Shown here piece after piece: positions 49,227 to 64,000 of a stretch of DNA of 64,000 bases. The stretch is from Acidimicrobiia bacterium. GTDB lineage: Bacteria > Actinomycetota > Acidimicrobiia > Acidimicrobiales > Aldehydirespiratoraceae. The notes under the pieces were generated by a model. It did not search any database. It worked only from the letters and a program-made list of their open reading frames with translations, and had not been told where the DNA came from. Both the position numbers and the translations under genes were made by a program. The stretch spans positions 80,967 through 144,966 of the forward strand of contig JAJEEV010000013.1 in the NCBI GenBank assembly GCA_022820805.1, written 5' to 3'. How positions within the stretch are numbered: the stretch's first letter is position 1; the number at the start of each line of letters is the position of its first letter.

Positions 49227-49991
49227 CTAGTTGATGTGGCGGGCCGGGCACCAGTTGAAGTCGGTGAGGACCAGCCGGCGCGACACCGGCCCGAAGGCCG
49301 TGACGGAGGCGAGGCTCACCCGCAGGCGCATGATCATCTCAGCGCCGCCGCCGAGCAGCCACACCACGGCCGATTTGATGGGGGTGGCGTGGGTCACCAC
49401 CAGAATGTTGCTCGTCGTGGCCTCCTCGGCGAGCTCCGCCACCGCCTCCCCGACCCGCCCGTGCAGGCAGGCCATCGACTCGCCCCCGGGCGGCATGTAG
49501 GATATGTCGGAGGCCCACGCCGCCCCGAGCTCGGCCATGACTTCGGAGATCCGGCGGTCGTCATAGGCACCGAAGTCGATCTCCATCCACCGGTCGTCGA
49601 CCGTGGTCGGCGCATCGGCCAGACCAGCCGCCCGCGCCGTCTGCTGGGTGCGACGGCGCGACGACACCACCACCCGGTCCACCGGCCAGCGCTCCCGCAG
49701 AGCCTCCCCCACCAGTGCAGACTGCTCGAGACCGACCTCGTCGAGAGGCGAGTCGAACTGGCCCTGGAGCCGCGCCTGGGCGTTGTTGGGCGTTCGGCCG
49801 TGACGCAGGAGGATCAGGATGAACCGATGGTAGATGGCGGAGTCGTGGCTCGCCCCGCCCCCGCGCGGCGACGGCCGTACCGGCCCTGATGGCCCGCGGT
49901 TCGTCGCGAACTGCCTGACAGTGGCAATAATCGGGGCATGGCATCCGTGGCCGGCGCCGATCCCGACCCTGGCAGAGAGCGCATAGAACAT
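49227..49991 (-). CDS. Histidine phosphatase (phosphoglycerate-mutase-like) family protein; start unresolved
   Basis: RHG motif ILILLRHGRTPNN and a second His in LVVTHATPIK. The only in-frame ATG/GTG/TTG upstream of RHG is the ATG at 49991. That start adds ~60 non-family residues and overlaps the divergent regulator's annotated start. Confidence 0.65.
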   Translation of the reverse strand: MFYALSARVGIGAGHGCHAPIIATVRQFATNRGPSGPVRPSPRGGGASHDSAIYHRFILILLRHGRTPNNAQARLQGQFDSPLDEVGLEQSALVGEALRERWPVDRVVVSSRRRTQQTARAAGLADAPTTVDDRWMEIDFGAYDDRRISEVMAELGAAWASDISYMPPGGESMACLHGRVGEAVAELAEEATTSNILVVTHATPIKSAVVWLLGGGAEMIMRLRVSLASVTAFGPVSRRLVLTDFNWCPARHIN

Positions 49992-50618
49992 CGGCTCAGC
50001 GAGGCTCTCGGCTCGCCGGTCTCCGCCGCGGAGCTGTGCCGGGTGGTGGGCAGCCGGGTCCGGGAGCTGCGCCAGGCGATGAACATGACGATGTCGGCCT
50101 TCGCCGCGGAGGCCGACATCTCGCTGGGGATGCTCTCCAAGATCGAGCACGGCCAGAGCGCGCCGAGCCTGTCGACGCTGGTGCGGCTGGCCGCGACGGC
50201 GCGGGTGCCGGTCACCGCGCTGTTCAGAGGACTCGACGAGGAGCACGACCTGGTGATCGTGAGATCCGGCGAGGGCCACGAGATCCACCACCAGGGCGGC
50301 GGCCCCGGTCGGCTCTACCAGGACCTCGGCACCCTGCGCGGCCCCAACCGGGTGATCGAGCCGATGATCACCACCATCACCGAGCCGGGCGGCGTCTTCC
50401 CGCTCTACCAGCATCCCGGCGTCGAGTTCCTGCACGTGCTCGAGGGATGCCTGGACTACGGCTACGGCGGGACCGCCTACCGCCTGAACGCGGGCGACAC
50501 CATGCAGATCCACGGCGAGGTGGCCCACGGTCCGGTCGAGCTGGTGCAGTTGCCGATCCGGTTCATCTCAATAAAGGTGTACCCGGCCACCGAGCCGCGG
50601 GCCGCGGCAGGAGGATGA
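49938..50618 (+). CDS. XRE-family HTH transcriptional regulator with C-terminal cupin sensor domain
   Basis: HTH region VGSRVRELRQAMNMTMSAFAAEADISLGMLSKIEHG. Cupin region YQHPGVEFLHVLEG...MQIHGEVAHG. The GTG at 50043 is an alternative start that removes the overlap with the phosphatase gene. Confidence 0.85.
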   Translation: MASVAGADPDPGRERIEHRLSEALGSPVSAAELCRVVGSRVRELRQAMNMTMSAFAAEADISLGMLSKIEHGQSAPSLSTLVRLAATARVPVTALFRGLDEEHDLVIVRSGEGHEIHHQGGGPGRLYQDLGTLRGPNRVIEPMITTITEPGGVFPLYQHPGVEFLHVLEGCLDYGYGGTAYRLNAGDTMQIHGEVAHGPVELVQLPIRFISIKVYPATEPRAAAGG

Positions 50619-50664
50619 ACGCCATGGGGCTCCTGTCCCTCTCCGCCAGGACCAGGGTGAAACT

Positions 50665-50892: not shown

Positions 50893-50894
50893 CC

Positions 50895-51308: not shown

Positions 51309-51337
51309 CGCCTCCCCTCGGCCCGCTGGCGCGGGAT

Positions 51338-51430
51338 GTTTCCCGCTCTTGTTCGCTGCGCTCACGGGCCGCTCGGGCCACGGCCTCGCCCGTTTGGAGC
51401 GAATTCGCTCGCCTACCCGCTCGGCCTCGG
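51338..51430 (+). repeat. Intergenic repeat element, copy 3 (~93 bp)
   Basis: Invariant core at 51354-51389. The 3' part diverges and contains the perfect palindrome gagcgaattcgctc (51397-51410). It lies upstream of amt. Confidence 0.85.
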
Positions 51431-51569
51431 TCGCGAATCTGAGGAAAGGATCGCGAACGCTCGGAAAGGTCTCACGGGCCCGAAGAGAACCGGCCGCAAC
51501 GACTGTGCTACTGTTTGCGGATTCCGGCCTGACCGGTCGGAACGGACAAGAGGAATTGGGGGTGAGTCA

Positions 51570-52958
51570 ATGAGCACAGCTATTGTGTTCACTGAGGCTT
51601 ACTACTTCTTCACTGTCGCGCTCATGTGGTTCTTGCACGTGGGCTTCATGACATATGAAGCCGGTGTATCACGGCGCAAGAACATCATGTCAACGGCAAT
51701 GAAGAACATCATGACGATAGCCGTCGTCACGCCGACGTTCTACTATTTCGGCTGGTACGTGTACTTCTGCATGCAGGAGGGCCTCAAGTTCACGGTGTCG
51801 GCCAACGGAGGCAGCCCCGCAGGACTTGAGGGGCTCTACTTCTGCGGCGACGGCTACGGACTGCCGTGGGACGGCTCCGCAGGACCGAACCTCGGCGACA
51901 ACATCACCGGCGTGTTCTGGGCGGCATTCGTGCTGTTCTCCTGGACCACCGGATCCATCATGTCGGGCGCGGTGCTGGAGCGCATCCGCATCTCGGCCTA
52001 CCTCTGGCTGACCGCCCTGATGGGCGGCATCGTGTGGGTCGTCGCGGCGGCCTGGGGCTGGAGCTACGGAGGCTGGTTGACGGTTCATTTCGGCTACCAC
52101 GACTTCGCGGCGTCCGGCGTGGTCCACGGCATCTCGGGCATCTTCGCTCTGGGCGTGCTGTTGAACCTCGGACCGAGGATCGGGCGGTACGATGCCGACG
52201 GCAACGCGAGAACGTTCAAACCCCACAACGTGCACATGACACTGATGGGGCTGATGATCATCTTCTCGGCGTTCTACGCGTTCTACGCGGCGTGCCTGGC
52301 GATCACCGCCGACACCACTCCGGGTTGGGCCAACATCTACTTCAGCCCGACCACGCTGTCGGCCATCACCTACACCATCACCATGGGCTTCGCGGGCGGC
52401 TTCGCCGGCGGCTACATCTTCTCGCGGGGAGATCCCTTCTGGACCATTTCCGGAGGCCTCGCCGGTGTTGTGACCGTCTCGGCAGGAGCCGACATCTACA
52501 GCCCGAACCTGGTCCTGGTCCTCGCCTTCGTCTCGGCCGGGATCGCCTTCCACGTCGGCAACTGGTTCGACACGAAGGCCCGCATCGACGATGCGGTAGG
52601 GGCGGTGACCGTCCACGGCGTGATGGGCTTCATCGGTGTGATCTGCGTCGGCATCTTCGCAGCCGGGTACCCGACCGGTCCGGCCGGCGTGGAGACCAGC
52701 TTCCTGGGCCAGCTCGTCGGAGCTACCGCTCTGATACCGCTGGCGTTCTTCACGGGTTACATCGCCTCGTGGATCCTCAAGAAACTGAACCTCTTGAGGG
52801 TGCCGGCCGAGGTCGAGGTCGAGGGCCTCGACATGGCCGAGTACGGCATGGACTTCTTCCCGGAGCACGGCCGAGCCGACGAGACGATCATCCAGGCCGA
52901 CGGCACCGAAGTGGTCTCTGCGGGCGTCCTGCAGGGCGACTTCAACTCCAACCGCTAG
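51570..52958 (+). CDS. amt: Ammonium (possibly methylammonium) transporter, Amt/MEP/Rh family
   Basis: ATG at 51570 inside track ORF 51336... Family motifs LHVGFMTYEAGVSRRKN and DFAASGVVHGISGIFALGVLLNLGPRIGRY. About 11 TM segments. Confidence 0.92.
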   Translation: MSTAIVFTEAYYFFTVALMWFLHVGFMTYEAGVSRRKNIMSTAMKNIMTIAVVTPTFYYFGWYVYFCMQEGLKFTVSANGGSPAGLEGLYFCGDGYGLPWDGSAGPNLGDNITGVFWAAFVLFSWTTGSIMSGAVLERIRISAYLWLTALMGGIVWVVAAAWGWSYGGWLTVHFGYHDFAASGVVHGISGIFALGVLLNLGPRIGRYDADGNARTFKPHNVHMTLMGLMIIFSAFYAFYAACLAITADTTPGWANIYFSPTTLSAITYTITMGFAGGFAGGYIFSRGDPFWTISGGLAGVVTVSAGADIYSPNLVLVLAFVSAGIAFHVGNWFDTKARIDDAVGAVTVHGVMGFIGVICVGIFAAGYPTGPAGVETSFLGQLVGATALIPLAFFTGYIASWILKKLNLLRVPAEVEVEGLDMAEYGMDFFPEHGRADETIIQADGTEVVSAGVLQGDFNSNR

Positions 52959-53116: not shown

Positions 53117-53341
53117 ATGAACACCTTCCCATACGACAGCTGGGAGGCCGCGCTGGAAGCAGCGGACGGCACCACCGGGTACTTCACCTGGGGACCCGGC
53201 GGCAACACTGGCTCGGTGGTCCTGGCCATCCTCGGCATCGCCGTCTCGGTGGTGATGGCCGTGATGATTACCGCCCGCGAGAACAAGATTCTCAACGACG
53301 CGGCTGACCAGCTCGCCGACAAGTACAACTCGGAGGGCTGA
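53117..53341 (+). CDS. Small single-TM protein (hypothetical)
   Basis: Strong AGGAGGA RBS and a GC3-rich frame. TM segment VVLAILGIAVSVVMAVMI. Confidence 0.6.
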   Translation: MNTFPYDSWEAALEAADGTTGYFTWGPGGNTGSVVLAILGIAVSVVMAVMITARENKILNDAADQLADKYNSEG

Positions 53342-53342
53342 C

Positions 53343-53465
53343 ATGGCCAACAAGCAGTTTGAGCTCAAGGGCAAGCAGGGCCACGACAAGGGCATCGAGA
53401 TGGCCATTGTCGTTGTCTGCCTGGCCATGGTCGTCTTCACGATCATCGCCATCCAGGCTCTCTGA
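53343..53465 (+). CDS. 40-aa micro membrane protein (hypothetical; below the ORF-track cutoff)
   Basis: My own reading: the ATG at 53343, 1 nt after the previous stop and preceded by GGAGGG, gives MANKQFELKGKQGHDKGIEMAIVVVCLAMVVFTIIAIQAL, with the stop at 53463-53465. Confidence 0.42.
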   Translation: MANKQFELKGKQGHDKGIEMAIVVVCLAMVVFTIIAIQAL

Positions 53466-53490
53466 CGACTGACTCACCCCAATCAAGGCA

Positions 53491-53529
53491 GGCTGGCGCC
53501 GCGTCGTCCATGACGATGCGGCGCCAGCC
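53491..53529 (+). terminator. Very stable 18-bp hairpin ending the amt / small-gene unit
   Basis: ggctggcgccgcgtcgtc / cat / gacgatgcggcgccagcc. It has 12 perfect GC-rich bp plus 6 more with one G-U, 26 nt after the stop at 53465. No U-tract. Confidence 0.55.
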
Positions 53530-53566
53530 CCTGCATTCAGGGATTTGACCTGATTGACCTGCGGCT

Positions 53567-53980
53567 GTGAACCTCCCACGTAAGCGGATCGCCCAGGTGT
53601 GCGGGGCCGTCGCGGCCCTGACGACGTTCCTGCCGTGGCAGACGACCGCCGGAGCCAGCGGCGCGGAATCGGTGGCCGGCACCAGCACCAGCGCGGGACA
53701 GCTCGTCCTGGTCGTGTGCCTCGTCACGGTCGGGCTGGTGCAGGTGGGCTGGCGGCCCGCGTGGATCGGTGCCGGCTTCGGGGCCGCCACCGCGATCCGC
53801 GAGCTGTTCGACCGCGAGGCCGACCCCGCGTGGGGTCTCGGCGTAGTGATCGCCGCCTGTGTTGTGGCCACGGTCCTGCTGGTCTGGGACATGTTCGCCA
53901 ACGTCGCCGGTCCGGGCGACGACCCCGGCGGGCCCGGAGGACGGGGACTGTCGGGACCCCTGGGCCGGCGCCGAGGCTGA
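53567..53980 (+). CDS. Hypothetical polytopic membrane protein
   Basis: Track ORF with a GTG start. Hydrophobic segments VCGAVAALTTFLPW, LVLVVCLVTVGLV and GVVIAACVVATVLLVW, with a Gly/Pro/Arg tail. Confidence 0.42.
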   Translation: MNLPRKRIAQVCGAVAALTTFLPWQTTAGASGAESVAGTSTSAGQLVLVVCLVTVGLVQVGWRPAWIGAGFGAATAIRELFDREADPAWGLGVVIAACVVATVLLVWDMFANVAGPGDDPGGPGGRGLSGPLGRRRG

Positions 53981-54046
53981 ATCTGTTGCACCGGTGAGAC
54001 TCCGCCGCGAGACTGGCTGGAGCGCACACACTCTCGGGAGGCGGCC

Positions 54047-56440
54047 ATGACGGCGATTGTGTTGGAGCAGCCCCGGGTCCTGGTGCCCGGGCTGTTGATG
54101 GTTGAACCCGGCGTGGAGCGCTACCGGGTGACCGGAGGCGGCGCGACCGTGCTGGCGCTCGCGGCCGGTGACGAACTGGAGGTGGTGGACCCAGAGGGGC
54201 GCCAGCGCTGCGAGCTGGTCGCCTTCGACGCGGACGGGCGGTCCGACCCTGGATTGCTCCGCCCAGCCAGATCCGGGGGGAACGGCTCCAGCCCAGCATC
54301 AACCCACGAGCCCGCCGCTCTCGACATCCTGTCGGCCGACCTCAAGGACGCACGACGGGTGCGGGCCGGTCTCGAGCGGGCCGGCATCGACCTGACGGCT
54401 GTGCGTGCAGCCCGCCCCCTGAGGCTGCTCGACAGCGACACGCCCCCGGGGACCCGAGCCCGGGTGGTGGCTCACGCCGACGTGGCCTGCGTGGTGGCGG
54501 CTCCGGGCGAGGCCATGTCGTCCCACGGCGGGGTCCCGCCCACCGACCTGATCGCATACGTGCACCGCCACGACCCGGCCGCCAACGACGGCAGACCCCT
54601 GCTTCCCGCTCCGCTGGCCGACCCCAGCCAGGACTTCATCATCGAGCACAGCACCGCCGTCGCCTACCAGGTGGCCAAGGGAGACTGGTTCCAGGTGCTC
54701 GACATCGAGGGCCGGCAGTGCTCGGACTTCCAGTGCTTCGCGACAGCCGATCTCGAAGCGGGCGCCGAGCTCTCCCTCGACGCCACCATCACCCGCACCC
54801 TCATGGGCGCCACCTGCCCTGCTCCCGGCCTGTACTCGAAGTTCTACAACGCCAGGATGCAGCCCCTCGTGGAGGTGGTCCAGGACACCGTTGGCCGCCA
54901 CGACACGTTCAACACGGCCTGCAACGCCCGGTACTACGAGGAGATGGGCTACCCCGGCCACGTCAACTGCACCGAGAACATCAACGGCGTGCTCAGCCCC
55001 TACGGCGTGGCTCGCCGCCGGGGTTGGGAGGCCATCAACTTCTTCTACAACACCCAGCTGGACGACGCCAACCAGATCTACCTCGACGAGCCGTGGTCCC
55101 GTCCCGGCGACTATGTGCTGCTGCGAGCCCTGGAGGATCTGGTGTGCGTGTCCACCTCGTGCCCCGACGACGTCGACGCGGCCAACGGCTGGAACCCCAC
55201 CGACATCGCGGTGCGCGTCTACCCGGCCGCCAACCGGTTCAAGAAAGCGACGGCTGTTCGAATGACTGCAGACTCCGAGGCAAAGCTCACCGCCGAGACC
55301 GGGTTCCACCCCCGCACGTCGGCCCTGACCCGCAGCTTCACCGAGTACTGCGGCTACTGGCTGGCCGACTCCTACACGGGGCACGGCCCCATCAACGAGT
55401 ACTGGGCCTGCCGGCAGGCCGCGGCGGCCATCGACCTGTCGCCGCTGCGCAAGTACGAGGTGACCGGGCCCGACGCCGAGCTGCTGATGCAGACCTGCGT
55501 CACCCGCAATGTCCGCAAGCTGGCCGACGGCCAGGTGTCCTACACCGCGATGTGCCTCGACACCGGCGGCATGATCGACGACGGCACCGTGTTCCGGCTC
55601 GGGCAACAGAACTTCCGCTGGATCGGGGGGCAGCTCGGGTACAGCGGTGTGTGGCTCCGGGAGCAGGCCCAGCGCCTGGGGCTGCAGGTCTGGGTGCGCA
55701 GCTCCACCGAGCAGCTCCACAACCTGCAGGTCCAGGGCCCCAACAGCCGCCGCATCCTCGAGCAGGTCGTCTGGACCCGGCCCGACCAGCCGACGATCGC
55801 CGAGCTCGGATGGTTCCGGTTCACCATCGCACGCATCGGCGACTTCGACGGGATCCCGCTGGTGGTGTCCCGCACGGGCTACACCGGCGAACTCGGGTAC
55901 GAGGTGTTCTGCCACCCCTCCGACGCCCCGGCGGTATGGGACGCCGTCTTTGAGGCCGGCGCCGACCACGGCCTGGTGCCGATGGGGCTGGCCGCGCTCG
56001 ACATCCTGCGCATCGAGTCCGGCCTGGTGTTCGCCGGCTACGAGTTCTGCGACCAGACCGACCCCTACGAGGCCGGCATCGGCTTCACCGTGCCGCTCAA
56101 GACCAAGGAGGACGACTTCATCGGCCGCGACGCCCTCCTGGGGCGCCGTGACAACCCGCAGCGCCGTCTGGTGGGGCTGGAGGTGGCCGGGGGCGAACCG
56201 GCCGCCCACGGCGACGGTGTGTACGTCGGGCGCAACCAGGTCGGCGTCGTCACCAGCGCCACCATCTCGCCCATCCTCCGCAAGAACATCGCGCTGTGCC
56301 GCATGGCGGTGGAGCACTCCGAGATCGGCACCGGTGTCGAGGTCGGCAAGCTCGACGGACACGAGAAGCGCATCGCGGCCGAGGTGGTGCGGTACCCGTT
56401 CTACGACCCGGAAAAGACCAGGGTCCGCGGCCTGTCCTGA
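54047..56440 (+). CDS. tdm: Trimethylamine-N-oxide demethylase-like protein: DUF1989 region fused to a GcvT-type aminomethyltransferase (tetrahydrofolate-binding) domain
   Basis: GGGAGG RBS. DUF1989-type core KGDWFQVLDIEGRQCSDFQCF...GRHDTFNTACNARYYEEMGYPGH. The C-terminal half carries GcvT folds (YEVTGPDAELLMQ..., SRTGYTGELGYEVF). This two-part architecture is that of characterised Tdm. Confidence 0.82.
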   Translation: MTAIVLEQPRVLVPGLLMVEPGVERYRVTGGGATVLALAAGDELEVVDPEGRQRCELVAFDADGRSDPGLLRPARSGGNGSSPASTHEPAALDILSADLKDARRVRAGLERAGIDLTAVRAARPLRLLDSDTPPGTRARVVAHADVACVVAAPGEAMSSHGGVPPTDLIAYVHRHDPAANDGRPLLPAPLADPSQDFIIEHSTAVAYQVAKGDWFQVLDIEGRQCSDFQCFATADLEAGAELSLDATITRTLMGATCPAPGLYSKFYNARMQPLVEVVQDTVGRHDTFNTACNARYYEEMGYPGHVNCTENINGVLSPYGVARRRGWEAINFFYNTQLDDANQIYLDEPWSRPGDYVLLRALEDLVCVSTSCPDDVDAANGWNPTDIAVRVYPAANRFKKATAVRMTADSEAKLTAETGFHPRTSALTRSFTEYCGYWLADSYTGHGPINEYWACRQAAAAIDLSPLRKYEVTGPDAELLMQTCVTRNVRKLADGQVSYTAMCLDTGGMIDDGTVFRLGQQNFRWIGGQLGYSGVWLREQAQRLGLQVWVRSSTEQLHNLQVQGPNSRRILEQVVWTRPDQPTIAELGWFRFTIARIGDFDGIPLVVSRTGYTGELGYEVFCHPSDAPAVWDAVFEAGADHGLVPMGLAALDILRIESGLVFAGYEFCDQTDPYEAGIGFTVPLKTKEDDFIGRDALLGRRDNPQRRLVGLEVAGGEPAAHGDGVYVGRNQVGVVTSATISPILRKNIALCRMAVEHSEIGTGVEVGKLDGHEKRIAAEVVRYPFYDPEKTRVRGLS

Positions 56441-56443
56441 CCG

Positions 56444-56471
56444 CAGCCCGCAGCCCGCTGCCCGCTGCCCG
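56444..56471. repeat. Heptanucleotide tandem repeat (cagcccg x2, ctgcccg x2)
   Basis: Read directly between the convergent stops at 56440 (+) and 56479 (-). It overlaps a hairpin ccgctg...cagcgg (56462-56485). Confidence 0.85.
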
Positions 56472-56478
56472 GGCGGGG

Positions 56479-57363
56479 TCAGCGGCGCAGGACCTTGGGC
56501 ACGATCGTGCCGAAGTCCGACGGCAGCTTCACGATCGTCACGCCGCACTCCCGCATGAGCTGGACCTTCTCGGCCGCCGACTCGCCCACGGTGGAGACGA
56601 TGGCCCCGGCGTGGCCCATGGTCCGCCCCCTGGGCGCGGTGAGCCCCGCGATGTAGCCCACCACCGGCTTGTGCATGTGATCACGGGCGTACTGGGCGGC
56701 CTGCGCCTCCTGGAGCCCGCCGATCTCGCCGATCATCACGATCGCCTCGGTGTCGCCGTCCCTCTCGAACCGCTTGAGGTGATCCATGAAGGAGCTGCCG
56801 TTGATGGGGTCGCCGCCGATGCCGACGCTGGTGCTCACCCCGATGCCGACTGCTTTGAGCTGTGATGCCGCCTCGTAGCCGAGGGTCCCGGACCGGCTGA
56901 CGATGCCGACGGGACCCCGCTCGTAGATGTGCGGGGGCATGATGCCCATCATCGCCCGATCCGGGCTGATCACCCCGGCGCAGTTCGGTCCGATCAGGCA
57001 CATCCGGCCGGCGTGCTGGTAGCGCCGCTGGTAGCGCTTCACCTTGATCATGTCCTGGACCGGGATGCCCTCGGTGATGCACACGCAGTACTCGATCCCG
57101 GCGTCGGCCGCCTCCATGATGGCGTCGGCCGCGAAGGGCGGCGGCACGAACACGATGCTGGCGGTCGCCTCCGTGGCTGCCACTGCCTGCTTCATGGTGT
57201 CGAACACGTCGACGCCGCAGTGGCTGCTGCCGCCCCGTCCCGGGGTCACCCCGCCCACCACGTTGGTCCCGTACTCGAGCATCTCGGTTGTGTGGAAGGT
57301 GGCTATCCGTCCGGTTATGCCCTGCACCAGCACCGGCGTCTGCTCATCGAGGATGATGCTCAT
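56479..57363 (-). CDS. mtkB: Malate-CoA ligase (malate thiokinase) alpha subunit, SucD-like
   Basis: [18 protein letters not shown]..., [11 protein letters not shown] and [22 protein letters not shown]. From memory it is closer to Methylorubrum MtkB than to SucD. It lies next to mcl. The start overlaps the mtkA stop (ATGA). Confidence 0.8.
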
Positions 57364-58535
57364 CTGGCCGCGCTCCCTTCCAGGGACTCCACCGCTCTCA
57401 CTCCGGCCTCGGCCAGCGAGTCCGCGGTCACCACCCCGACTCCGGCCTCGGACAGGATGCGCCGTCCCTCCTCGACGTTGGTCCCCGACAGCCGCACCAC
57501 CACCGGGACCTTGGGCTCGAGCTGCTGCACGGCTTGGACCACACCATCCGCCACCCAGTCGCAGCGGTTGATGCCAGCGAAGATGTTGACCAGCACGGCC
57601 TCGACGTTCTCGTCGGAGAGCACCAGCCGGAAGGCCTTCAGGACCCGTTCGGGCGAGGCACCGCCCCCGATGTCGAGGAAGTTGGCCGGCTCGCCGCCCG
57701 CGTGCTTGATCATGTCCAGGGTGGCCATGGCCAACCCGGCGCCGTTGATGATGCAGCCGATGCTGCCGTCGAGCCCCACGTAGCTGAGACCGCGGTCGAT
57801 GGCAGTCCGCTCCCGGGGGTCCTCCTGGGACTTGTCCCGCAGCTCGGACACGTCCTGGTGCCGGAACAGGGCGTTGTCGTCGAAGGTCATCTTGGCGTCC
57901 AGAGCCACCAGACGGCCGTCGGAGGTGACCGCCAGCGGGTTGATCTCGAGCATGGTGGCGTCCAGATCGCCGAAGGTGCGGTAGCAGGCCGACATGACCT
58001 GGACCGCCTGCGGGACCAGCGCCGCCTCGAGTCCCACCGCGAAGGCGATCTCGCGGGCCTCGAACGCCTGGAGTCCCACCGCCGGCTCGACGTTCACCCG
58101 CACGATGCCGGCGGGATCGCGGGCCGCGATCTCCTCGATGTCCATCCCGCCCTCGGCGGAGGCCACGACCATCACCCGCTCGGCCGAGCGGTCGAGCACG
58201 AACCCCAGGTAGATCTCCCGCTCAGCGGCGACGGCGGCCTCGACATAGAGCCGGTACACGCCTATGCCCCGCTCGCCGGTCTGCTGGGTCACCAGCCGCT
58301 TCCCGAGCAGGTCGTCGGCCGCGTCCCAGACCTCCCGCTCGTTGCTGCACATCCTGATCCCGCCGGCCTGGCCCCGGGCGCCGGTATGGACCTGAGCCTT
58401 GACGACCCACTGCTCGCCACCGATCTCCGAGGCCCGGTAGGTCGCCTGCTCGGGGCTGTAGGCCAGACCTCCCTCGGGAATGGCCACGCCGTAGTCGGCC
58501 AGGATCGCCTTGGCCTGATACTCGTGAATCTCCAT
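57360..58535 (-). CDS. mtkA: Malate-CoA ligase (malate thiokinase) beta subunit, SucC-like
   Basis: ATG at 58535 with an [23 protein letters not shown].... The segment [17 protein letters not shown] matches the MtkA form (SucC has NIFGGIVRCD). [27 protein letters not shown] is likewise MtkA-like. Confidence 0.82.
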
Positions 58536-58597
58536 GAACGTCCCTCCTGTCGCTCGATCCCTGTGCGCTCGCCGCGGAGACCGCCTGCGATCCCGCT

Positions 58598-59542
58598 TCA
58601 GCACCCCCGGGCCGAGATGGCCCCGGCCGTCTCGACCACGTTGGCGGCCATCCGGGCTGAGGCCGCGTCGATCATGCGGCCGTCGAGCTGGGCGGCGCCC
58701 CGGCCGGCCGCGGCCGCCTCCTCCAGTGCTTGGAGCACCCGGCGGGCCTGATCCACCTCGGCGGGTGGAGGGGTGAACACCTCGTTGGCCAGATCGACCT
58801 GCGACGGGTGGATGGCCCACTTGCCGTCATAGCCGAGAGCCGCGGCCCGGCGGGCCCCCGCGGTGAAGCCCTCGGGATCACCGAAGTCCCCGAAGGGTCC
58901 GTCGATGGCGCGCAGCCCGTTGGCCCGGCACGCCACCAGCATGCGCGACAGCGCCGAATGCCACTGGTCGCCCGGATAGTCGGGGTTGAGCCCTCCGATG
59001 GTGATCGTGCGAGCACGGCACGAGGCTGCGTAGTCCGCCACCCCGAAGTGGAGCGCCTCGAGCCGCGGGCTCGACGCGGCCACCGCCTCCACGTTGGCCA
59101 TTCCCAGCGCCGTCTCGATGAGGGCCTCCACGCCGATGCGGTGGTCCAGGCCCACCGCCTGCTCGATCTGGGTGACGATCGCGTCGACGGTGTAGATGTC
59201 GCCGGGCACCCCCACCTTGGGGACCAGGATCGTGTCGAGCCGAGCCCCGGCCTGCTCCACCACATCGATCAGATCGCGGTACATGTAAGGCGTGTCGAGG
59301 CCGTTGATCCGCACCGACACCGTCTTCTTGGCCCGGTGCCAGTCGATGTTGCCCAGGGCCTCGATGACGTTGCGCCGGGCCGCTTCCTTGTCGTCGGGAG
59401 CGACCGCGTCCTCCAGGTCCAGGAAGACGTAGTCGGCCCGGCCGGCCGCGGCCTTCTCGAACAACTCGGGCCGCGAGCCGGGCACCGCCAACTCGCTGCG
59501 GTGCAGCCGACGCTTCGCCTCGGTGATCTGATGATGGCTCAT
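58598..59542 (-). CDS. mcl: L-malyl-CoA / beta-methylmalyl-CoA lyase (HpcH/CitE family)
   Basis: The ATG at 59542 gives [23 protein letters not shown].... [26 protein letters not shown] and [19 protein letters not shown] track the remembered MclA sequence almost motif for motif. Confidence 0.87.
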
Positions 59543-59652
59543 ACTCGACGCCTCCCCGTCTGTCATCGAGGTACCCCGGTTGACGGCCAACGGCGAGAAT
59601 GGACCCGCACATCGGCCGTCTCTCTTGCGACCTCCAAGCCTGAACCACTACT

Positions 59653-59668
59653 GTGATGAAAGTATCAC
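59653..59668. promoter_or_regulatory. 16-bp palindrome GTGATgaaagtATCAC in the mcl / aminotransferase divergent intergenic region
   Basis: Perfect 5-bp arms with a 6-bp spacer inside an AT-rich patch (59641-59680), between divergent starts at 59542 (-) and 59693 (+). Confidence 0.3.
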
Positions 59669-59692
59669 TAATTGGATGGGTGGTCCAGTCCG

Positions 59693-60787
59693 ATGCAGCA
59701 CGCCGAAAGAATCCTCATGGGCCCAGGCCCGTCGAATCCCTATCCAGAGGTCATCGAGGCCTTCACCCGGCCGGTGATGGGCCACCTGGACGGCGACTTC
59801 CTCGAGTTGCTCGACGACACCTGCGACCGCCTGCGAGCGGTGTTCCGCACACAGAACGCCCTGACCTTTCCCGTGTCGGGAACCGGGTCGGCCGGTATGG
59901 AGGCCGCGTTCGTGAACCTGGTCTCCGGAGGCGAGACAGTGGTCGTGGGCGTGAACGGGGTGTTCGGCGAGCGCATGTGCGACGCAGCAGCCCGGTGCGG
60001 CGCGCGAGTCGTGCGAGTGGACGAGGAATGGGGCACGCCGCTGGAGCCGCAGCGCATCCTGGAAGCTCATCCCGACCCGGCCGTGATCGCGGTCGTCCAC
60101 GCGGAGACATCCACCGGGGTTCGCAACGATCTGGCCGGGCTGGGCTCGGCCAAGGGGGACGCGCTGCTGCTGGCGGACTGCGTCACGTCGCTCGGCGGGA
60201 TCGACGTTCGCCTCGACGACTGGGGCGTGGACATCGCCTTCAGCGGAACCCAGAAGTGCCTCGGGGTGCCGCCGGGCCTGGCGCCCGTCAGCGTCTCGCC
60301 CCGGGCCGTCGAGCGGATGCACTGCCGGCCCCAGTCGTGGTACTTCGACATGGGGATGATCGCCGACTACGTCAACGGCGCCGGCGCGAGGGCCTATCAC
60401 CACACCGCTCCGATCTCGATGATCTACGCGCTCCACGCCGGCCTGGGCGTGGTGCTGGACGAGGGGCTGGAGGAAGCCCACGCCCGGCACCAGGAATGCG
60501 GGGACATGCTCCAGGCCGGACTCGAGGCCCGGGGATTCGACCTGGTGGCTCCGAGCGAGGCCCGCCTGCCCCAGCTCACCTCGGTGCACGTGCCCGAGGC
60601 GCGCCTGCCACCAGACACGGGCGAGGCCGACATCCGCCGAGTGCTGCTCGAGCGCTACGGCATCGAGATCGGCGGCGGGCTGGGTGCCCTGGCGGGCAAG
60701 TGCTGGCGTATCGGTTGCATGGGACACACCGCCCGGGCCCGCAACGTGACGCTGGTTCTGGCAGCCCTCGACGAGGTGCTCGCCTAG
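59693..60787 (+). CDS. Class V aminotransferase, alanine/serine-glyoxylate aminotransferase type
   Basis: The ATG at 59693 gives MQHAERILMGPGPSN; the track start at 59672 is TTG. PLP-lysine context FSGTQKCLG and the C-terminal WRIGCMGH are typical of the AGXT/Sga family. Confidence 0.85.
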   Translation: MQHAERILMGPGPSNPYPEVIEAFTRPVMGHLDGDFLELLDDTCDRLRAVFRTQNALTFPVSGTGSAGMEAAFVNLVSGGETVVVGVNGVFGERMCDAAARCGARVVRVDEEWGTPLEPQRILEAHPDPAVIAVVHAETSTGVRNDLAGLGSAKGDALLLADCVTSLGGIDVRLDDWGVDIAFSGTQKCLGVPPGLAPVSVSPRAVERMHCRPQSWYFDMGMIADYVNGAGARAYHHTAPISMIYALHAGLGVVLDEGLEEAHARHQECGDMLQAGLEARGFDLVAPSEARLPQLTSVHVPEARLPPDTGEADIRRVLLERYGIEIGGGLGALAGKCWRIGCMGHTARARNVTLVLAALDEVLA

Positions 60788-60875
60788 CGGCTAGTTTCGC
60801 CCCCGCGCGTTGGCATCAGGGTGCGCTAGGTTTTACTGTCACTACCGATACACATAATCACAGGGGGGATTCTCC

Positions 60876-62222
60876 ATGACTCGAGTAGCTGTCATCGGTG
60901 CCGGGCCGTGCGGGCTGTCGCAGTTGCATGCCTTCGCCAGCGATTCCGGGGCAGGCGGCGCAGACGCGCCCGAGATCGTCTGCTACGAGAAGCAGTCCGA
61001 CTGGGGCGGGCTCTGGAACTACGACTGGCGCACCGGGCTCGATGAGCACGGCGAGCCCTGCCACGCCAGTATGTACCGCTACCTGTGGTCCAACGGCCCC
61101 AAGGAGTGCCTGGAGTTCGCCGACTACAGCTTCGAGGAGCACTTCGGCAAGCCGATCGCGTCGTTCCCGCCCCGCGAGGTCCTCTACGACTACATCATCG
61201 GACGGGCCAGCCGCAGCGGCTTCCGCGACCAGATCCGCTTCAACCATCCGGTGCGCCGCGTCAGCCGCTCGGCCGGTGGCGACGGGTTCACGGTCACTGC
61301 CCACGACCAGGCCAACGACACCGACACCAGCGAGGACTTCGACTACGTGGTGGTGTCCACCGGGCACTTCTCCATCCCCAACATGCCCCACTACCCCGGC
61401 TACGAGACCTTCGGCGGCACGCTGCTGCACGCCCACGACTTCCGCGACGCAGTGCAGTTCGAGGACCGGAACGTCCTCGTGATCGGATCGAGCTACTCGG
61501 CCGAGGACATCGCCTCACAGCTCTGGAAGTACGGCGCCCGCTCGGTGATCTGCACGTCCCGCAGCGGCCCAATGGGCTTCGACTGGCCCGACGGCATCAC
61601 TGAGAGGCCCATCCTGACCCATGTCGACGGCCGCACCGTGCACTTCGTCGACGGGTCCACTGCCGACGTGGACGCCATCGTCTCCTGCACCGGCTACCTG
61701 CACCACTTCCCGTTCGTGGACGACGACCTGCGCCTGGTCACCGCCAACCGGCTGGCCACCTCCATGCTGTACCGCGGCGTGGTGTTCCAGCCCGAGAACC
61801 GGATCCTCTACCTGGGGATGCAGGACCAGTGGTACACGTTCAACATGTTCGACGCCCAGGCCTGGTACGCCCGCGACGTGATCCTGGGCCGCATCGAGCT
61901 GCCCGGCGCGGCCGAGCAGGCCCGCTGGATCGAGGAGCGCCAGGCAGAGGAGGACGCGCTGGCAGACGACTACGCGTGCATCGACTTCCAGGGCGCCTAC
62001 ACCCAGGACCTGGTGGACCAGACCGACTATCCCGACTTCAACACGCCGCTGGTCAACCAGATGTTCTACGACTGGAAGAAGCACAAGAAGCAGTCGATCA
62101 TCGGCTACCGCGACCACGGGCACACCTCGCCGCTGACGGGCACGGTGGCACCCATCCACCACACGTCGTGGGAGGACGCCCTCGACGACTCGCTGGAGTC
62201 CTACCTGGCCGACTCGGCCTGA
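60876..62222 (+). CDS. tmm: Trimethylamine monooxygenase (bacterial flavin-containing monooxygenase)
   Basis: AGGGGGGA RBS. FAD motif VIGAGPCG, FMO motif FGGTLLHAHDF and NADPH motif VIGSSYSAEDI. The stretch CYEKQSDWGGLWNYDWRTGLDEHGEPCHASMYRYLWSNGPKECLEFADYSFEEHFGKPI is near-identical in pattern to remembered Tmm sequences. Confidence 0.9.
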   Translation: MTRVAVIGAGPCGLSQLHAFASDSGAGGADAPEIVCYEKQSDWGGLWNYDWRTGLDEHGEPCHASMYRYLWSNGPKECLEFADYSFEEHFGKPIASFPPREVLYDYIIGRASRSGFRDQIRFNHPVRRVSRSAGGDGFTVTAHDQANDTDTSEDFDYVVVSTGHFSIPNMPHYPGYETFGGTLLHAHDFRDAVQFEDRNVLVIGSSYSAEDIASQLWKYGARSVICTSRSGPMGFDWPDGITERPILTHVDGRTVHFVDGSTADVDAIVSCTGYLHHFPFVDDDLRLVTANRLATSMLYRGVVFQPENRILYLGMQDQWYTFNMFDAQAWYARDVILGRIELPGAAEQARWIEERQAEEDALADDYACIDFQGAYTQDLVDQTDYPDFNTPLVNQMFYDWKKHKKQSIIGYRDHGHTSPLTGTVAPIHHTSWEDALDDSLESYLADSA

Positions 62223-62250
62223 GAGGCCGAGCAGTCCCAACCTGCCCGCC

Positions 62251-63504
62251 ATGGACGATGTGATCATCGTCGGGGGCGGGATCGGCGGGCTCACGCTGGC
62301 GCTCATGCTGCACGAGCGCGGCATCGGCGCACGCGTCTACGAGGCCGCGCCGGAGATCAAGCCCATCGGGGTGGGGATCAGCCTGCTTCCCCACGCCAGC
62401 AAGGAGCTGGGTCTGCTGGGACTCACCGGCGCCCTGGCCGACGTGGCCGTGACCACCAGGGAGTCCTGCTTCTTCAACCGGTTCGGGCAGTTCGTCTACT
62501 CCGAGCCCGTGGGCCGCTACGCCGGCTACGACTGGCCCCAGTTCCAGATCCACCGGGGCGATCTGCAGCAGGTGCTGTACGAGGCCTACGTCGAACGGGT
62601 CGTCGGGGGCGCCGGGCGAGTGCTGACCGGGCATCGCTGCACCGGCACCGACTCGGACGCCCGGGGAGCGGTGGCCCACTTCGTCGACTCCAGCACCGGC
62701 GCCCGGCTGCAGGCGGCGCGGGGCGCCGCGGTCATCGGCTGCGACGGCATTCACTCCGCGGTGCGGAGGCAGTTCTTCGGTGACGAGGGCCCGCCCGTCT
62801 ACTCCGGTGTCAACATGTGGCGGGGCACCACCGTCTGGGAGCCGTTCCTCAGCGGGTCCACCTACCTCAGGGCCGGCTGGCTGACAGTCGGAAAGATGGT
62901 GATCTACCCGATCCGCCACAACGTCGACGGCCGGGGCCGCCAGCTCGTCAACTGGGTGGCCGAGGTGCAGACCGACTCCTACAACGAGCAGGACTGGAAC
63001 CGGGTCGGCCGCCTCGAGGACTTCCACCACGTCTTCGCCGACTGGACCTTCGACTGGCTCGATGTGGCCGGGCTGATCCGGGACTCCGAGCAGATCCTCG
63101 AGTATCCGATGGTGGACCGGGATCCGCTGCCGAGATGGACCCACGGACGGGTGACGCTGCTGGGCGACGCGGCCCATCCCATGTACCCGCGCGGCTCCAA
63201 CGGCGCGGGCCAAGCCATCCTGGACGCAAGGGCGCTGGCCGACGCCCTGCAGTCGCGAGGGTCGGTGACCGAAGCCCTGCAGGCCTACGAGGACCAGCGA
63301 CTCGCAGCCACCGCCGCAGTGGTGCACGCCAGCCGGTCGGCGCCCCCCGACGTGATCCTGAAGGCGGTCCACGAGCGCACCGGGGACCGCCCCTTCGGGC
63401 GCATCGACGACGTGATCACCGCGCAGGAGATGGCGGCCCTGTCCGACAGCTACAAGCGAGTCGCCGGGTACCACCGCGACTCCCTCGCGACACCCTCGTC
63501 CTAG
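62251..63504 (+). CDS. FAD-dependent aromatic-ring-hydroxylase-like monooxygenase
   Basis: IIVGGGIGGLTLA dinucleotide fold, GCDGIHSAVR, and LLGDAAHPMYPRGSNGAGQAILDA. Confidence 0.85.
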   Translation: MDDVIIVGGGIGGLTLALMLHERGIGARVYEAAPEIKPIGVGISLLPHASKELGLLGLTGALADVAVTTRESCFFNRFGQFVYSEPVGRYAGYDWPQFQIHRGDLQQVLYEAYVERVVGGAGRVLTGHRCTGTDSDARGAVAHFVDSSTGARLQAARGAAVIGCDGIHSAVRRQFFGDEGPPVYSGVNMWRGTTVWEPFLSGSTYLRAGWLTVGKMVIYPIRHNVDGRGRQLVNWVAEVQTDSYNEQDWNRVGRLEDFHHVFADWTFDWLDVAGLIRDSEQILEYPMVDRDPLPRWTHGRVTLLGDAAHPMYPRGSNGAGQAILDARALADALQSRGSVTEALQAYEDQRLAATAAVVHASRSAPPDVILKAVHERTGDRPFGRIDDVITAQEMAALSDSYKRVAGYHRDSLATPSS

Positions 63505-63552
63505 CCGCAAGGCCGATTGGGTCGAGCCGCTAAGCCTCTTACGCTTGGGCGA

Positions 63553-64000
63553 ATGCGTGCCGGTTCACTTGAGATCGCTCCTCCCCTCTATGAGTTCATC
63601 GCTGTCGAGGCCCTTCCGGGAACCGGCGTGCAGATCGACGAGTTCTGGAGCGCGCTGCAGTCCATCCTGACCGACCTCGGACCCCGCAACGCCGCGCTGT
63701 TGAGCCGGCGCGACGAACTGCAGTCCCAGATCGACGACTGGCACCGGGCGGCCCGGGCCGAGGGCCGGGACAGCGACGGCGAGGCCTACGCCAACTTCCT
63801 GCGCGACATCGGCTACCTGCGCTACATGGACGGGTCGGTCACCGCCACGACGGCCAATGTGGACGCCGAGATCGCCGAGGTGGCCGGACCGCAGCTGGTG
63901 GTGCCCCTCGACAACGCCCGCTACGCGCTGAACGCGGCCAACGCCCGCTGGGGAAGCCTCTACGACGCGCTGTACGGCACCGACGTGCTCAGCGAGTCGG
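63553..64000 (+). CDS. glcB: Malate synthase G, N-terminal part (3' end beyond the window)
   Basis: ALPGTGVQIDEFW... and GPQLVVPLDNARYALNAANARWGSLYDALYGTDV match the GlcB N-terminus. The reading frame runs off the window. Confidence 0.87.
   Translation, partial: MRAGSLEIAPPLYEFIAVEALPGTGVQIDEFWSALQSILTDLGPRNAALLSRRDELQSQIDDWHRAARAEGRDSDGEAYANFLRDIGYLRYMDGSVTATTANVDAEIAEVAGPQLVVPLDNARYALNAANARWGSLYDALYGTDVLSES

What the first reader, a model, noticed from the sequence alone, without database searches (positions are those of the whole stretch)
56479..64000. Serine-cycle-type genes (mtkAB, mcl, glyoxylate aminotransferase) placed beside malate synthase G: a potential futile loop
Malate thiokinase plus malyl-CoA lyase convert malate to glyoxylate and acetyl-CoA at the cost of ATP. 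Malate synthase G catalyses the opposite condensation. Finding both within 7 kb, interleaved with tmm and next to tdm, implies tight reciprocal regulation or a specific flux design. One such design is glyoxylate regeneration for C1 assimilation via serine/glycine during growth on methylated amines, with GlcB used in other conditions. Hydroxypyruvate reductase, glycerate kinase and serine hydroxymethyltransferase are not in the window.
Basis: partly seen in the sequence, partly recalled or inferred. Interest (0 to 1): 0.6.

Follow-up and report, generated by a model that had tools for sequence, protein, structure and literature searches.

The report
Serine-cycle cassette inside trimethylamine gene island
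The genes are real: a marine Acidimicrobiia bacterium carries a small, losable cassette (malate thiokinase, malyl-CoA lyase, glyoxylate aminotransferase) wedged between its trimethylamine-oxidation genes. The neighbouring malate synthase is simply the genus's only copy, and it sits beside tmm whether or not the cassette is present.

Summary
Observation confirmed. Between tdm and tmm lie mcl-mtkA-mtkB (minus strand) and a divergent class-V glyoxylate aminotransferase. Next come tmm, a PhzS-like FAD monooxygenase and a complete glcB (746 aa, running past the window end).

The ligase is malate thiokinase, not the cell's succinyl-CoA synthetase:
- MtkA passes NCBIfam's malate--CoA ligase equivalog.
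- A separate housekeeping sucCD sits on another contig in a pcrA-sucCD-purH setting.

The lyase is about 63% identical to the solved Methylobacterium Mcl.

The "designed futile loop" is only partly supported:
- glcB is the sole malate synthase of the genome and of each genus-mate that has one.
- glcB lies downstream of tmm in 20 of 21 tmm-bearing genus-mates, but only 9 of 24 carry the cassette.
- One genus-mate shows a clean deletion scar where the cassette was.
- Other Acidimicrobiia genera keep tdm|mcl-mtkAB|agt-tmm without glcB, or pair mcl-mtkAB with ppc.
- All five other mtkAB genomes tested also encode a malate synthase elsewhere.

Best reading: a minimal, mobile serine-cycle cassette (malate to glyoxylate plus acetyl-CoA, then glyoxylate to glycine). 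It would supply the C1 acceptor for TMA-derived methylene-THF and rely on housekeeping GlyA, Ppc, Mdh, GlxK and ICL. No dedicated hpr or gck was found.

MtkA is rare in the class (3 of 400 genomes). The aminotransferase is AGXT-type, not Sga-type.

Earlier notes in this scan report similar cassettes in other genomes.

The parts
49938..50618 (+). XRE (HTH_3)-cupin regulator at the left border of the TMA island
   Evidence: Pfam HTH_3 plus Cupin_2. Kept at the island border in G002, G017, G022, G010 and G024. XRE-family regulators are reported as conserved in methylamine clusters (PMC13199381). A role here is inferred.
51336..52958 (+). Amt-family transporter, probably for methylated amine or ammonium uptake
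   Evidence: PF00909, 217 bits. Syntenic with tdm in genus-mates and in L014 and L118.
54047..56440 (+). tdm, trimethylamine N-oxide demethylase (DUF1989 plus a GcvT-type folate-binding domain)
   Evidence: NF053776 equivalog, 1187 bits against a cut-off of 1100. Pfam domains.
56479..57363 (-). mtkB, malate thiokinase alpha (SucD-like) subunit
   Evidence: CoA_binding plus Ligase_CoA domains. 46% identical to the cell's own SucD on C51 but 62-71% identical to proteobacterial MtkB. Its start overlaps the mtkA stop by 4 nt.
57360..58535 (-). mtkA, malate thiokinase beta (SucC-like) subunit
   Evidence: NF010647 malate--CoA ligase beta, 667.7 bits against a cut-off of 604; SucC model 528 bits. 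43% identical to own SucC and 69% to Leisingera MtkA. Tree.
58598..59542 (-). mcl, L-malyl-CoA/beta-methylmalyl-CoA lyase (314 aa from the conserved ATG at 59542)
   Evidence: HpcH_HpaI. 5UGR 422 bits over the full length and 4L9Y 327 bits. The conserved start was seen in the spacer alignment.
59646..59672 (.). Conserved direct repeat CCACTAnT-N13-CCACTAAT in the mcl/agt divergent spacer; candidate operator
Evidence: The only block conserved across 11 Acidimicrobiia spacers from several genera. Only 3 such sites occur genome-wide, against about 4.7 expected.
59693..60787 (+). agt, class-V (AGXT-type) glyoxylate aminotransferase
   Evidence: Best PDB match 1VJO, 313 bits, then AGXT, PucG and related enzymes. 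Only 28% identical to Leisingera Sga. BhcA model 208 bits against a 650 cut-off. Co-varies with mtkA across the genus.
60876..62222 (+). tmm, trimethylamine monooxygenase
   Evidence: NF058570 equivalog, 738 bits against a cut-off of 675.
62251..63504 (+). PhzS-like class A FAD monooxygenase, substrate unknown
   Evidence: NF005720, 569 bits. Best PDB matches 2RGJ and 3C96, 293 bits. Lies between tmm and glcB in most genus-mates.
63517..64000 (+). glcB, malate synthase G, 5' part. The likely start is the ATG at 63553. The gene ends at G000:C14:146720 (L001:84-2324)
   Evidence: NF002825, 1112 bits, and TIGR01345, 1013 bits against a 989 cut-off, on the full 746-aa ORF. It is the only PF01274 hit in the genome.

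Best explanation
mcl-mtkA-mtkB and the divergent AGXT-type aminotransferase form one four-gene cassette that is gained and lost as a unit. It is inserted between tdm and tmm in a trimethylamine (TMA) island of an Acidimicrobiia genome.

Proposed mechanism:
1. MtkAB activates malate to malyl-CoA at the cost of ATP.
2. Mcl cleaves malyl-CoA to glyoxylate plus acetyl-CoA.
3. The aminotransferase converts glyoxylate to glycine.
4. Glycine is the acceptor with which housekeeping GlyA traps the methylene-THF released by Tmm/Tdm-driven TMA demethylation, giving serine.

The rest of an ICL-plus serine cycle would run on housekeeping genes elsewhere in the genome: ppc, mdh, a GlxK-type glycerate kinase, an unassigned 2-hydroxyacid dehydrogenase, and isocitrate lyase.

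GlcB is not part of this cassette. It is the genus's single malate synthase, and its position downstream of tmm predates the cassette or is independent of it. The ATP-wasting loop with MtkAB/Mcl is therefore a side-effect to be controlled, as in other mtkAB-bearing bacteria, and not a design.

Shown: gene identities, the unit character of the cassette, its distribution, and the independence of glcB. Inferred: direction of flux, use of serine as amino donor, completion of the cycle, and regulation.
For: The housekeeping sucCD lies elsewhere, in a pcrA-sucC-sucD...purH setting.

The cassette behaves as a unit:
- In 24 genus-mates, mtkA is found in 9 and agt in 9, with 8 shared.
- G005 carries a deletion scar that joins the last 30 codons of agt to mtkB residue 62.
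- G007 has tdm directly followed by tmm.

Links to C1 release and to carboxylation:
- The layout tdm|mcl-mtkAB|agt-tmm is kept in L012-L015 and L118, which represent other genera.
- In L016-L018 and L120, the native-type ppc is divergent from mcl-mtkAB, with the same agt about 4 kb away.
- tdm lies within 2-8 kb of mcl/mtkAB in about ten proteobacterial loci.
- In Alphaproteobacteria the serine cycle is experimentally required for growth on methylamines and uses sga-mcl-mtkBA clusters (PMC13199381).

Other pathway parts in this genome:
- glyA, ppc, GlxK-type glycerate kinase.
- ICL, 729 bits against a 562 cut-off.
- A single mdh/ldh gene.

ICL is present in 9 of 9 MtkA-bearing genus-mates against 8 of 15 without MtkA. 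These genomes are kin and not independent.

glcB is independent of the cassette.

From established knowledge: glyoxylate aminotransferase equilibria lie far towards glycine, which fits Mcl acting as the glyoxylate producer.
Against: - No dedicated hydroxypyruvate reductase was found. Seven D-2-hydroxyacid dehydrogenases exist, but none reaches an equivalog cut-off.
- No MOFRL-type glycerate 2-kinase was found.
- The aminotransferase is not of the methylotroph Sga type, and its amino donor is unknown.
- tmm and tdm occur in many genus-mates without the cassette, so it is not needed for TMA oxidation. Marine heterotrophs often use TMA only for energy and nitrogen.
- In this genome tmm, the monooxygenase, glcB and the following oxidase are separated by only 28-48 bp. 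glcB may therefore be co-transcribed with tmm and expressed together with the divergent mcl-mtkAB operon, which would drive the ATP-wasting loop.
- There are no expression or enzyme data, and the organism is known only as a draft genome.
Confidence: 0.55

Rival explanations
1. Glycine-supply module only. The cassette makes glyoxylate and then glycine, plus acetyl-CoA, from malate. This keeps GlyA supplied with a C1 acceptor, or meets glycine demand. No closed assimilatory serine cycle runs; serine is used directly for biosynthesis or degraded by other routes.
For: - The conserved core in all Acidimicrobiia versions is only mcl-mtkAB plus agt, sometimes with ppc; hpr and gck are never present.
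- No assignable Hpr and no MOFRL-type Gck were found in the genome.
- The cassette is dispensable for TMA oxidation in the genus.
Against: - A GlxK-type glycerate kinase, seven candidate 2-hydroxyacid dehydrogenases, ppc, mdh and ICL are all present, so closure of the cycle is possible.
- No Fe-S serine dehydratase and no clear PEP synthase or PPDK were found for an alternative serine-to-PEP route.
- ICL co-occurs with the cassette in 10 of 10 genomes.
Confidence: 0.22
2. Reverse operation. Mcl condenses glyoxylate with acetyl-CoA, and MtkAB converts malyl-CoA to malate while making ATP. This would be an energy-conserving alternative to GlcB. The two routes would then run in parallel, with no futile loop.
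For: - Both reactions are reversible in principle, by analogy with succinyl-CoA synthetase; Mcl works in the condensing direction in the ethylmalonyl-CoA pathway (established knowledge).
- G024 has ICL and the cassette but no malate synthase.
- ICL is present in every cassette-bearing genome.
Against: - The cassette always travels with a glyoxylate aminotransferase, whose equilibrium removes glyoxylate towards glycine (established knowledge).
- In a sister clade it is paired with ppc, which feeds malate and does not consume it.
- Its homologues in Alphaproteobacteria function in the serine cycle (PMC13199381).
- G024 is equally consistent with an ICL-plus serine cycle, which needs no malate synthase.
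Confidence: 0.1
3. Mis-assigned enzymes. The ligase is a second succinyl-CoA (or other dicarboxyl-CoA) synthetase, and the lyase acts on citramalyl-CoA, citryl-CoA or beta-methylmalyl-CoA in an unrelated pathway.
For: - MtkB has no specific model and matches SucD models.
- Mcl-family enzymes are promiscuous; the 5UGR entry is named malyl-CoA/beta-methylmalyl-CoA lyase.
- No NCBIfam lyase equivalog is passed.
Against: - MtkA passes the malate--CoA ligase equivalog and outscores the SucC model.
- A housekeeping sucCD exists elsewhere.
- Mcl is about 63% identical over its full length to the solved M. extorquens enzyme.
- A separate CitE/RipC-like lyase with a CoA-transferase is on C20.
- No ccr was found, so an ethylmalonyl-CoA pathway is unlikely to use the beta-methylmalyl-CoA activity.
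Confidence: 0.05

Closest known systems
Alphaproteobacterial serine-cycle clusters used for growth on methylamines (Aminobacter sp. [quoted passage not shown]
   Same: - The same mcl and mtkAB enzymes: 61% and 69% identity to Leisingera.
- An aminotransferase gene is next to them.
- The same functional pairing with TMA, DMA and MMA catabolism.
- tdm lies a few kb away in several Rhodobacteraceae loci.
- An XRE-type regulator is in the methylamine cluster.
   Different: - No hpr, gck, ppc or glyA in the cluster.
- No SecR regulator.
- The aminotransferase is AGXT-type, only 28% identical to Sga.
- The cassette sits inside the tmm/tdm operon pair.
- The host is Actinomycetota, not Pseudomonadota.
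Methylobacterium (Methylorubrum) extorquens AM1 serine cycle, sga-hpr-mtdA-fch-mtkAB-ppc-mcl (Mcl structure 5UGR)
   Same: - Mcl is about 63% identical across the whole chain.
- MtkA matches the malate--CoA ligase equivalog.
- The ppc-mcl-mtkAB linkage is seen in a sister Acidimicrobiia clade.
   Different: - M. extorquens regenerates glyoxylate through the ethylmalonyl-CoA pathway and lacks a classical malate synthase (established knowledge).
- This genome has ICL and GlcB and no ccr.
Glyoxylate shunt (isocitrate lyase plus malate synthase G)
   Same: GlcB is complete and canonical, and ICL is present on C29.
   Different: - glcB is placed in the TMA island downstream of tmm throughout the genus.
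- Seven genus-mates have glcB but no ICL, so GlcB there must use glyoxylate from another source.
Engineered 'modified serine cycle' in E. coli (Mtk, Mcl, alanine-glyoxylate aminotransferase, serine deaminase, Pps, Ppc, Mdh; recalled from memory, Yu and Liao 2018, not checked here)
   Same: It uses an AGT-type aminotransferase together with Mtk and Mcl, without hydroxypyruvate reductase or glycerate kinase.
   Different: This genome shows no Fe-S serine dehydratase and no clear PEP synthase or PPDK, so the pyruvate branch of that design is not supported.

Membership tests
Malate thiokinase MtkAB (malate--CoA ligase, EC 6.2.1.9) | The beta subunit scores above the curated equivalog cut-off and above the SucC model | tested here: met
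   NF010647 scores 667.7 bits against a cut-off of 604; the SucC model NF001913 scores 528. The cell's own SucC on C51 shows the opposite pattern, 474 against 363.
Malate thiokinase MtkAB (malate--CoA ligase, EC 6.2.1.9) | A separate housekeeping succinyl-CoA synthetase exists in the genome | tested here: met
   sucCD at C51:31625-33651, 43-46% identical, flanked by pcrA and purH.
Malate thiokinase MtkAB (malate--CoA ligase, EC 6.2.1.9) | Two adjacent, translationally coupled subunit genes linked to mcl | tested here: met
   mtkA and mtkB overlap by 4 nt. mcl lies 62 bp upstream on the same strand. The arrangement is conserved in 15 Acidimicrobiia loci.
Malate thiokinase MtkAB (malate--CoA ligase, EC 6.2.1.9) | Malate-dependent CoA ligase activity | not testable with these tools
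   Needs an enzyme assay.
L-malyl-CoA/beta-methylmalyl-CoA lyase (Mcl, EC 4.1.3.24) | HpcH/HpaI fold, closest to characterised Mcl and not to CitE or CLYBL | tested here: met
   PF03328, 145 bits. 5UGR 422 bits and 4L9Y 327 bits, against 133 bits or less for citrate-lyase-like chains.
L-malyl-CoA/beta-methylmalyl-CoA lyase (Mcl, EC 4.1.3.24) | Passes a curated Mcl equivalog model | tested here: not met
   The only Mcl model in NCBIfam is the haloarchaeal one (NF041626): 133 bits against a cut-off of 500. That model is lineage-specific, so this result carries little weight.
Serine cycle (complete pathway) | Sga-type serine--glyoxylate aminotransferase | tested here: not met
   The adjacent aminotransferase is AGXT-type and 28% identical to Leisingera Sga. 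No other Sga hit was found in the genome.
Serine cycle (complete pathway) | Hydroxypyruvate reductase | tested here: inconclusive
   Seven D-2-hydroxyacid dehydrogenases were found, and none reaches an equivalog cut-off. The best match to Leisingera Hpr is 36% over 238 aa, in a serA-like gene.
Serine cycle (complete pathway) | Glycerate kinase | tested here: met
   A GlxK-type kinase at C3:25005-26060, TIGR00045 240 bits against a cut-off of 168. The MOFRL-type Gck used by methylotrophs was not found.
Serine cycle (complete pathway) | glyA, ppc and mdh present | tested here: met
   All three are on other contigs and are of housekeeping type.
Serine cycle (complete pathway) | A glyoxylate-regeneration route (ICL or the ethylmalonyl-CoA pathway) | tested here: met
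   ICL scores 729 bits against a cut-off of 562. ccr is not found; the best hit is 82 bits against a cut-off of 379.
Malate synthase G | Full-length protein above the equivalog cut-offs | tested here: met
   746 aa. NF002825 scores 1112 against 565; TIGR01345 scores 1013 against 989.

The most novel reading that the evidence does not exclude
In these Acidimicrobiia, Mcl and MtkAB may run backwards as an ATP-conserving malate synthase (glyoxylate plus acetyl-CoA to malyl-CoA, then to malate plus ATP). This would run in parallel with the irreversible GlcB. The apparent futile loop would then be two alternative routes in the same direction. In G024, which has ICL and the cassette but no malate synthase, the cassette would complete the glyoxylate shunt.

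A less radical novel reading is my best explanation itself: the first serine-cycle-type C1 assimilation in Actinomycetota, built from a shared mcl-mtkAB pair and a native AGXT-type aminotransferase.
Probability: 0.1. Interest if true: 0.7.

Novelty: new variant of a known kind. Interest (0 to 1): 0.4.

Why it matters
TMA and TMAO are major marine nitrogen-containing osmolytes. Whether bacteria only burn their methyl groups or also build biomass from them affects carbon budgets and, if the host is a sponge symbiont as earlier scan notes suggest, host-symbiont exchange.

Serine-cycle use of methylamines is documented for Alphaproteobacteria. I found no paper in the searchable library that links Acidimicrobiia with the serine cycle or with malyl-CoA enzymes.

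The cassette described here has four features of interest:
- It is stripped down to four genes.
- It uses a different aminotransferase family from the known clusters.
- It is rare in the class, in 3 of 400 sampled genomes.
- It is visibly gained and lost inside one genus.

That makes it a tidy natural system for asking what minimal gene set turns C1 dissimilation into assimilation.

The specific claim of a designed futile loop with glcB is, by contrast, ordinary. The adjacency is a genus-level accident of gene order.

Tried and rejected
- **Palindrome as operator.** A direct repeat that overlaps it is conserved. With one mismatch allowed, the palindrome pattern has only one further site in the window, which is at the chance level.
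- **Riboswitch near glcB or agt.** I looked for a glycine or other riboswitch. There was no Rfam match at E of 0.1 or below in 49000-64000.
- **Promoter and terminator scan.** It found no sigma-70-like promoter and only chance-level terminator-like sites. One weak hairpin follows agt at 60805-60826.
- **SecR-type regulator, MOFRL Gck, Sga and Hpr of the alphaproteobacterial type.** tblastn with Leisingera proteins found none.
- **Ethylmalonyl-CoA pathway.** No ccr was found.
- **Serine-to-pyruvate-to-PEP variant.** No Fe-S serine dehydratase was found. The only PPDK_N hit is weak, at 48 bits.
- **Donor of mcl-mtkAB.** The tree places the Acidimicrobiia clade (SH-aLRT 84) as sister to a proteobacterial and Gemmatimonadota clade. 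It is not nested inside that clade, and the SucC outgroup branch is very long. Direction and donor are therefore unresolved.
- **Regulon search.** The direct-repeat motif occurs at only two other genomic sites, none near serine-cycle genes, against about 4.7 expected by chance.
- **Literature.** Searches for the tmm/tdm-mtk-mcl linkage outside Alphaproteobacteria and for Acidimicrobiia found nothing.
- **Not run.** I ran no structure or complex prediction, because no claim here depends on one.

Full report
**What is there**

The window is G000:C14:80967-144966, from a 3.4-Mb, 70% GC draft genome that is 94.8% complete. In and around 56479-64000 the coding frames were picked by third-position GC and by family matches. 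The genes are:

| Coordinates | Strand | Gene | Main evidence |
|---|---|---|---|
| 54047-56440 | + | tdm | equivalog passed |
| 56479-57363 | - | mtkB | SucD-like family |
| 57360-58535 | - | mtkA | 4-nt overlap with mtkB |
| 58598-59542 | - | mcl | closest to solved Mcl |
| 59693-60787 | + | class-V aminotransferase (agt) | AGXT-type |
| 60876-62222 | + | tmm | equivalog passed |
| 62251-63504 | + | PhzS-like FAD monooxygenase | |
| from 63517 or 63553 | + | glcB | 746 aa, above both equivalog cut-offs |

glcB runs on past the window end. It is followed after 41 bp by a sarcosine/glycine-oxidase-like FAD enzyme, called sox403 here.

**Are these really Mtk and Mcl?**

- MtkA scores 667.7 bits on NCBIfam's malate--CoA ligase beta equivalog (cut-off 604) and 528 on the SucC model.
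- The genome has a second SucCD pair on C51. It is 43-46% identical, scores best on the SucC model (474 bits against 363 on the Mtk model), and lies between pcrA and purH. By my knowledge that is the usual actinobacterial position, but this was not tested here.
- Mcl aligns over its whole length with the solved M. extorquens malyl-CoA lyase 5UGR (422 bits, about 63% identity) and with R. sphaeroides Mcl1 4L9Y (327 bits). Citrate-lyase-like chains score 133 bits or less.
- A separate CitE/RipC-like lyase with a CaiB-type CoA-transferase sits on C20.
- Among the aminotransferase's best solved relatives are several that use glyoxylate as amino acceptor: Nostoc AGT 1VJO, mosquito AGT, PucG, human AGXT and ureidoglycine-glyoxylate aminotransferase. 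It is not the methylotroph Sga type; it is 28% identical to Leisingera Sga.

**The cassette is a unit and is mobile within the lineage**

The closest public relatives of MtkA (83-90% identity) are Acidimicrobiia MAGs (record titles). Results for 24 genomes of the same genus:

| Gene | Genus-mates with it |
|---|---|
| mtkA | 9 |
| agt | 9 (8 shared with mtkA) |
| tmm | 21 |
| glcB | 23 |

Fetched regions show the following layouts:

- G016, G002, G022 and G010 have the full window layout.
- G011 lacks only agt.
- G007 has tdm directly followed by tmm.
- G005 has a deletion scar. The last 30 codons of agt are joined to mtkB from residue 62, so one deletion of about 3.9 kb removed the cassette.

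Outside the genus the patterns are:

- L013-L015 and L118 keep tdm|mcl-mtkAB|agt...tmm-sox403.
- L119 has agt|mcl-mtkAB alone.
- L016-L018 and L120 have a native-type ppc (58-60% identical to this genome's ppc, 32-33% to Leisingera's) divergent from mcl-mtkAB, with the same agt about 4 kb away.

In an even draw of 400 Acidimicrobiia genomes, only 3 carry such an MtkA. Orthologues of the aminotransferase, by contrast, are common in the order without MtkA. In a maximum-likelihood tree the Acidimicrobiia MtkAs form one clade that is sister to a proteobacterial and Gemmatimonadota clade. The patchiness and the 65-75% identity to proteobacterial enzymes suggest lateral spread, but no donor is resolved.

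**What about glcB?**

- glcB is the only PF01274 gene in this genome and in every genus-mate that has one.
- From the coordinates, glcB lies downstream of tmm in 20 of 21 tmm-bearing genus-mates. The distance is 0.2-1.6 kb in 15 genomes and 13-14 kb in 5. This holds irrespective of the cassette.
- The string glcB-sox403-response regulator-RsbW-like-SBP-kinase also occurs in G009 and G012, where no tmm was found. In G004 it lies about 13 kb from tmm.
- G024, a single 4.6-Mb contig, has the cassette and ICL but no malate synthase.
- In the other genera the cassette-bearing locus has no glcB. The L014 genome has its only malate synthase about 2.2 Mb away.
- Leisingera aquimarina, Paracoccus methylarcula, Kiloniella spongiae and Yoonia sediminilitoris all carry mtkAB and also encode a malate synthase elsewhere.

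The potential ATP-wasting loop is therefore common to mtkAB-bearing bacteria. The 7-kb proximity seen here follows from where the cassette landed and is not a conserved design.

One caveat remains. In this genome the gaps between tmm, the monooxygenase, glcB and sox403 are only 28-48 bp. glcB may therefore be co-transcribed with tmm while mcl-mtkAB is read divergently from the same region. Control would then have to be post-transcriptional or kinetic. This cannot be settled computationally.

**How it most likely works**

The conserved core is mcl-mtkAB plus a glyoxylate aminotransferase. It is linked either to tdm and tmm or to ppc. This fits the second half of the serine cycle: PEP to oxaloacetate to malate to malyl-CoA to glyoxylate plus acetyl-CoA, and then glyoxylate to glycine.

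Tdm carries a GcvT-type folate domain. By established knowledge its C1 unit can therefore enter as methylene-THF. GlyA (C17) would join it to glycine.

Elsewhere the genome has:

- ppc;
- one mdh/ldh gene;
- a GlxK-type glycerate kinase;
- isocitrate lyase;
- seven unassigned D-2-hydroxyacid dehydrogenases.

It lacks ccr, a MOFRL-type Gck, a SecR regulator and an Fe-S serine dehydratase.

All ten cassette-bearing genomes of the genus have ICL, against 8 of 15 without the cassette. A hypergeometric test gives p of about 0.013, but these genomes are kin and not independent.

I therefore favour an ICL-plus, minimal serine-cycle cassette (confidence 0.55). The rivals are a glycine-supply-only version (0.22), reverse ATP-conserving operation (0.10) and mis-assigned enzymes (0.05).

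**Comparison with what is known**

[quoted passage not shown] I verified the Leisingera layout in L044.

The present cassette differs in four ways:

- phylum;
- size (four genes, no hpr, gck or secR);
- aminotransferase family;
- position, embedded between tdm and tmm.

Library searches found no paper that links Acidimicrobiia with the serine cycle, malyl-CoA enzymes or these TMA genes. This shows absence from that library and not a proof of novelty.

Earlier notes of this scan mention related cassettes in other genomes, including an unverified SAR11 case (e1-2763031) and sga-mtkAB modules.

**Verdict**

The gene identification is sound. As a claim about a futile loop designed around glcB, the finding is ordinary. 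As a minimal, losable serine-cycle variant in Acidimicrobiia it is moderately interesting, a new variant of a known kind.

Noticed in passing
window 59646-59672: The mcl/agt spacer holds a direct repeat, CCACTAnT-N13-CCACTAAT. It is the only block conserved across 11 Acidimicrobiia loci from several genera, and it lies about 20-45 bp upstream of the agt start. It is a likely operator or promoter element, and the regulator is unknown.
   Followed up: partly
L001:2366-3577 (G000:C14:146765-147976): A sarcosine/glycine-oxidase-like FAD enzyme (sox403; best PDB 1Y56_B) follows glcB throughout the genus. In other genera it directly follows tmm. Seven genus-mates have glcB and sox403 but no ICL. The enzyme may supply glyoxylate to GlcB, or it may be the missing secondary-amine (DMA/MMA) oxidation step.
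   Followed up: partly
window 62251-63504: A PhzS-like class A flavin monooxygenase (2RGJ, 293 bits) is kept between tmm and glcB in most genus-mates and in L012. It has no obvious substrate in TMA metabolism.
   Followed up: partly
L109 (G005:C1:3806000-3825999) 14615-15415: A clean deletion scar: the last 30 codons of agt abut mtkB from residue 62. This documents recent loss of agt, mcl, mtkA and the 5' part of mtkB in one event.
   Followed up: yes
G024 (L114 and whole genome): A single-contig genus-mate with the cassette, tmm, tdm and ICL, but with no malate synthase detectable by either protein or Pfam search.
   Followed up: partly
L106/L107 (G017); also G015, G020, G004 and G006 by coordinates: An insertion of about 12-14 kb separates tmm/fadmo from glcB in five genus-mates. 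Its content was not examined.
   Followed up: no
L016:12075-14698: In a MAG labelled Proteobacteria UBA7447, whose MtkA groups with the Acidimicrobiia clade, mtkB is followed by a PALP-family enzyme and an MttB-family methyltransferase. This is another methylated-amine link for the cassette.
   Followed up: no
L003 (G000:C20) 439-3680: A second CitE/RipC-like lyase lies near a CaiB-type CoA-transferase (best model: succinyl-CoA:mesaconate CoA-transferase). It is probably an itaconate or mesaconate-type degradation unit, separate from Mcl.
   Followed up: no
G011 (C1:2035946-2043342 and C3:1153-8491): The tmm-glcB-mtkA region appears twice at near-identical identity. This is either a real duplication or an assembly artefact.
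   Followed up: no
window 50895-51308 and 53567-53980: Two small ORFs with no family match flank the Amt-type transporter. Both are conserved in position across the genus, at 54-73% identity.
   Followed up: no
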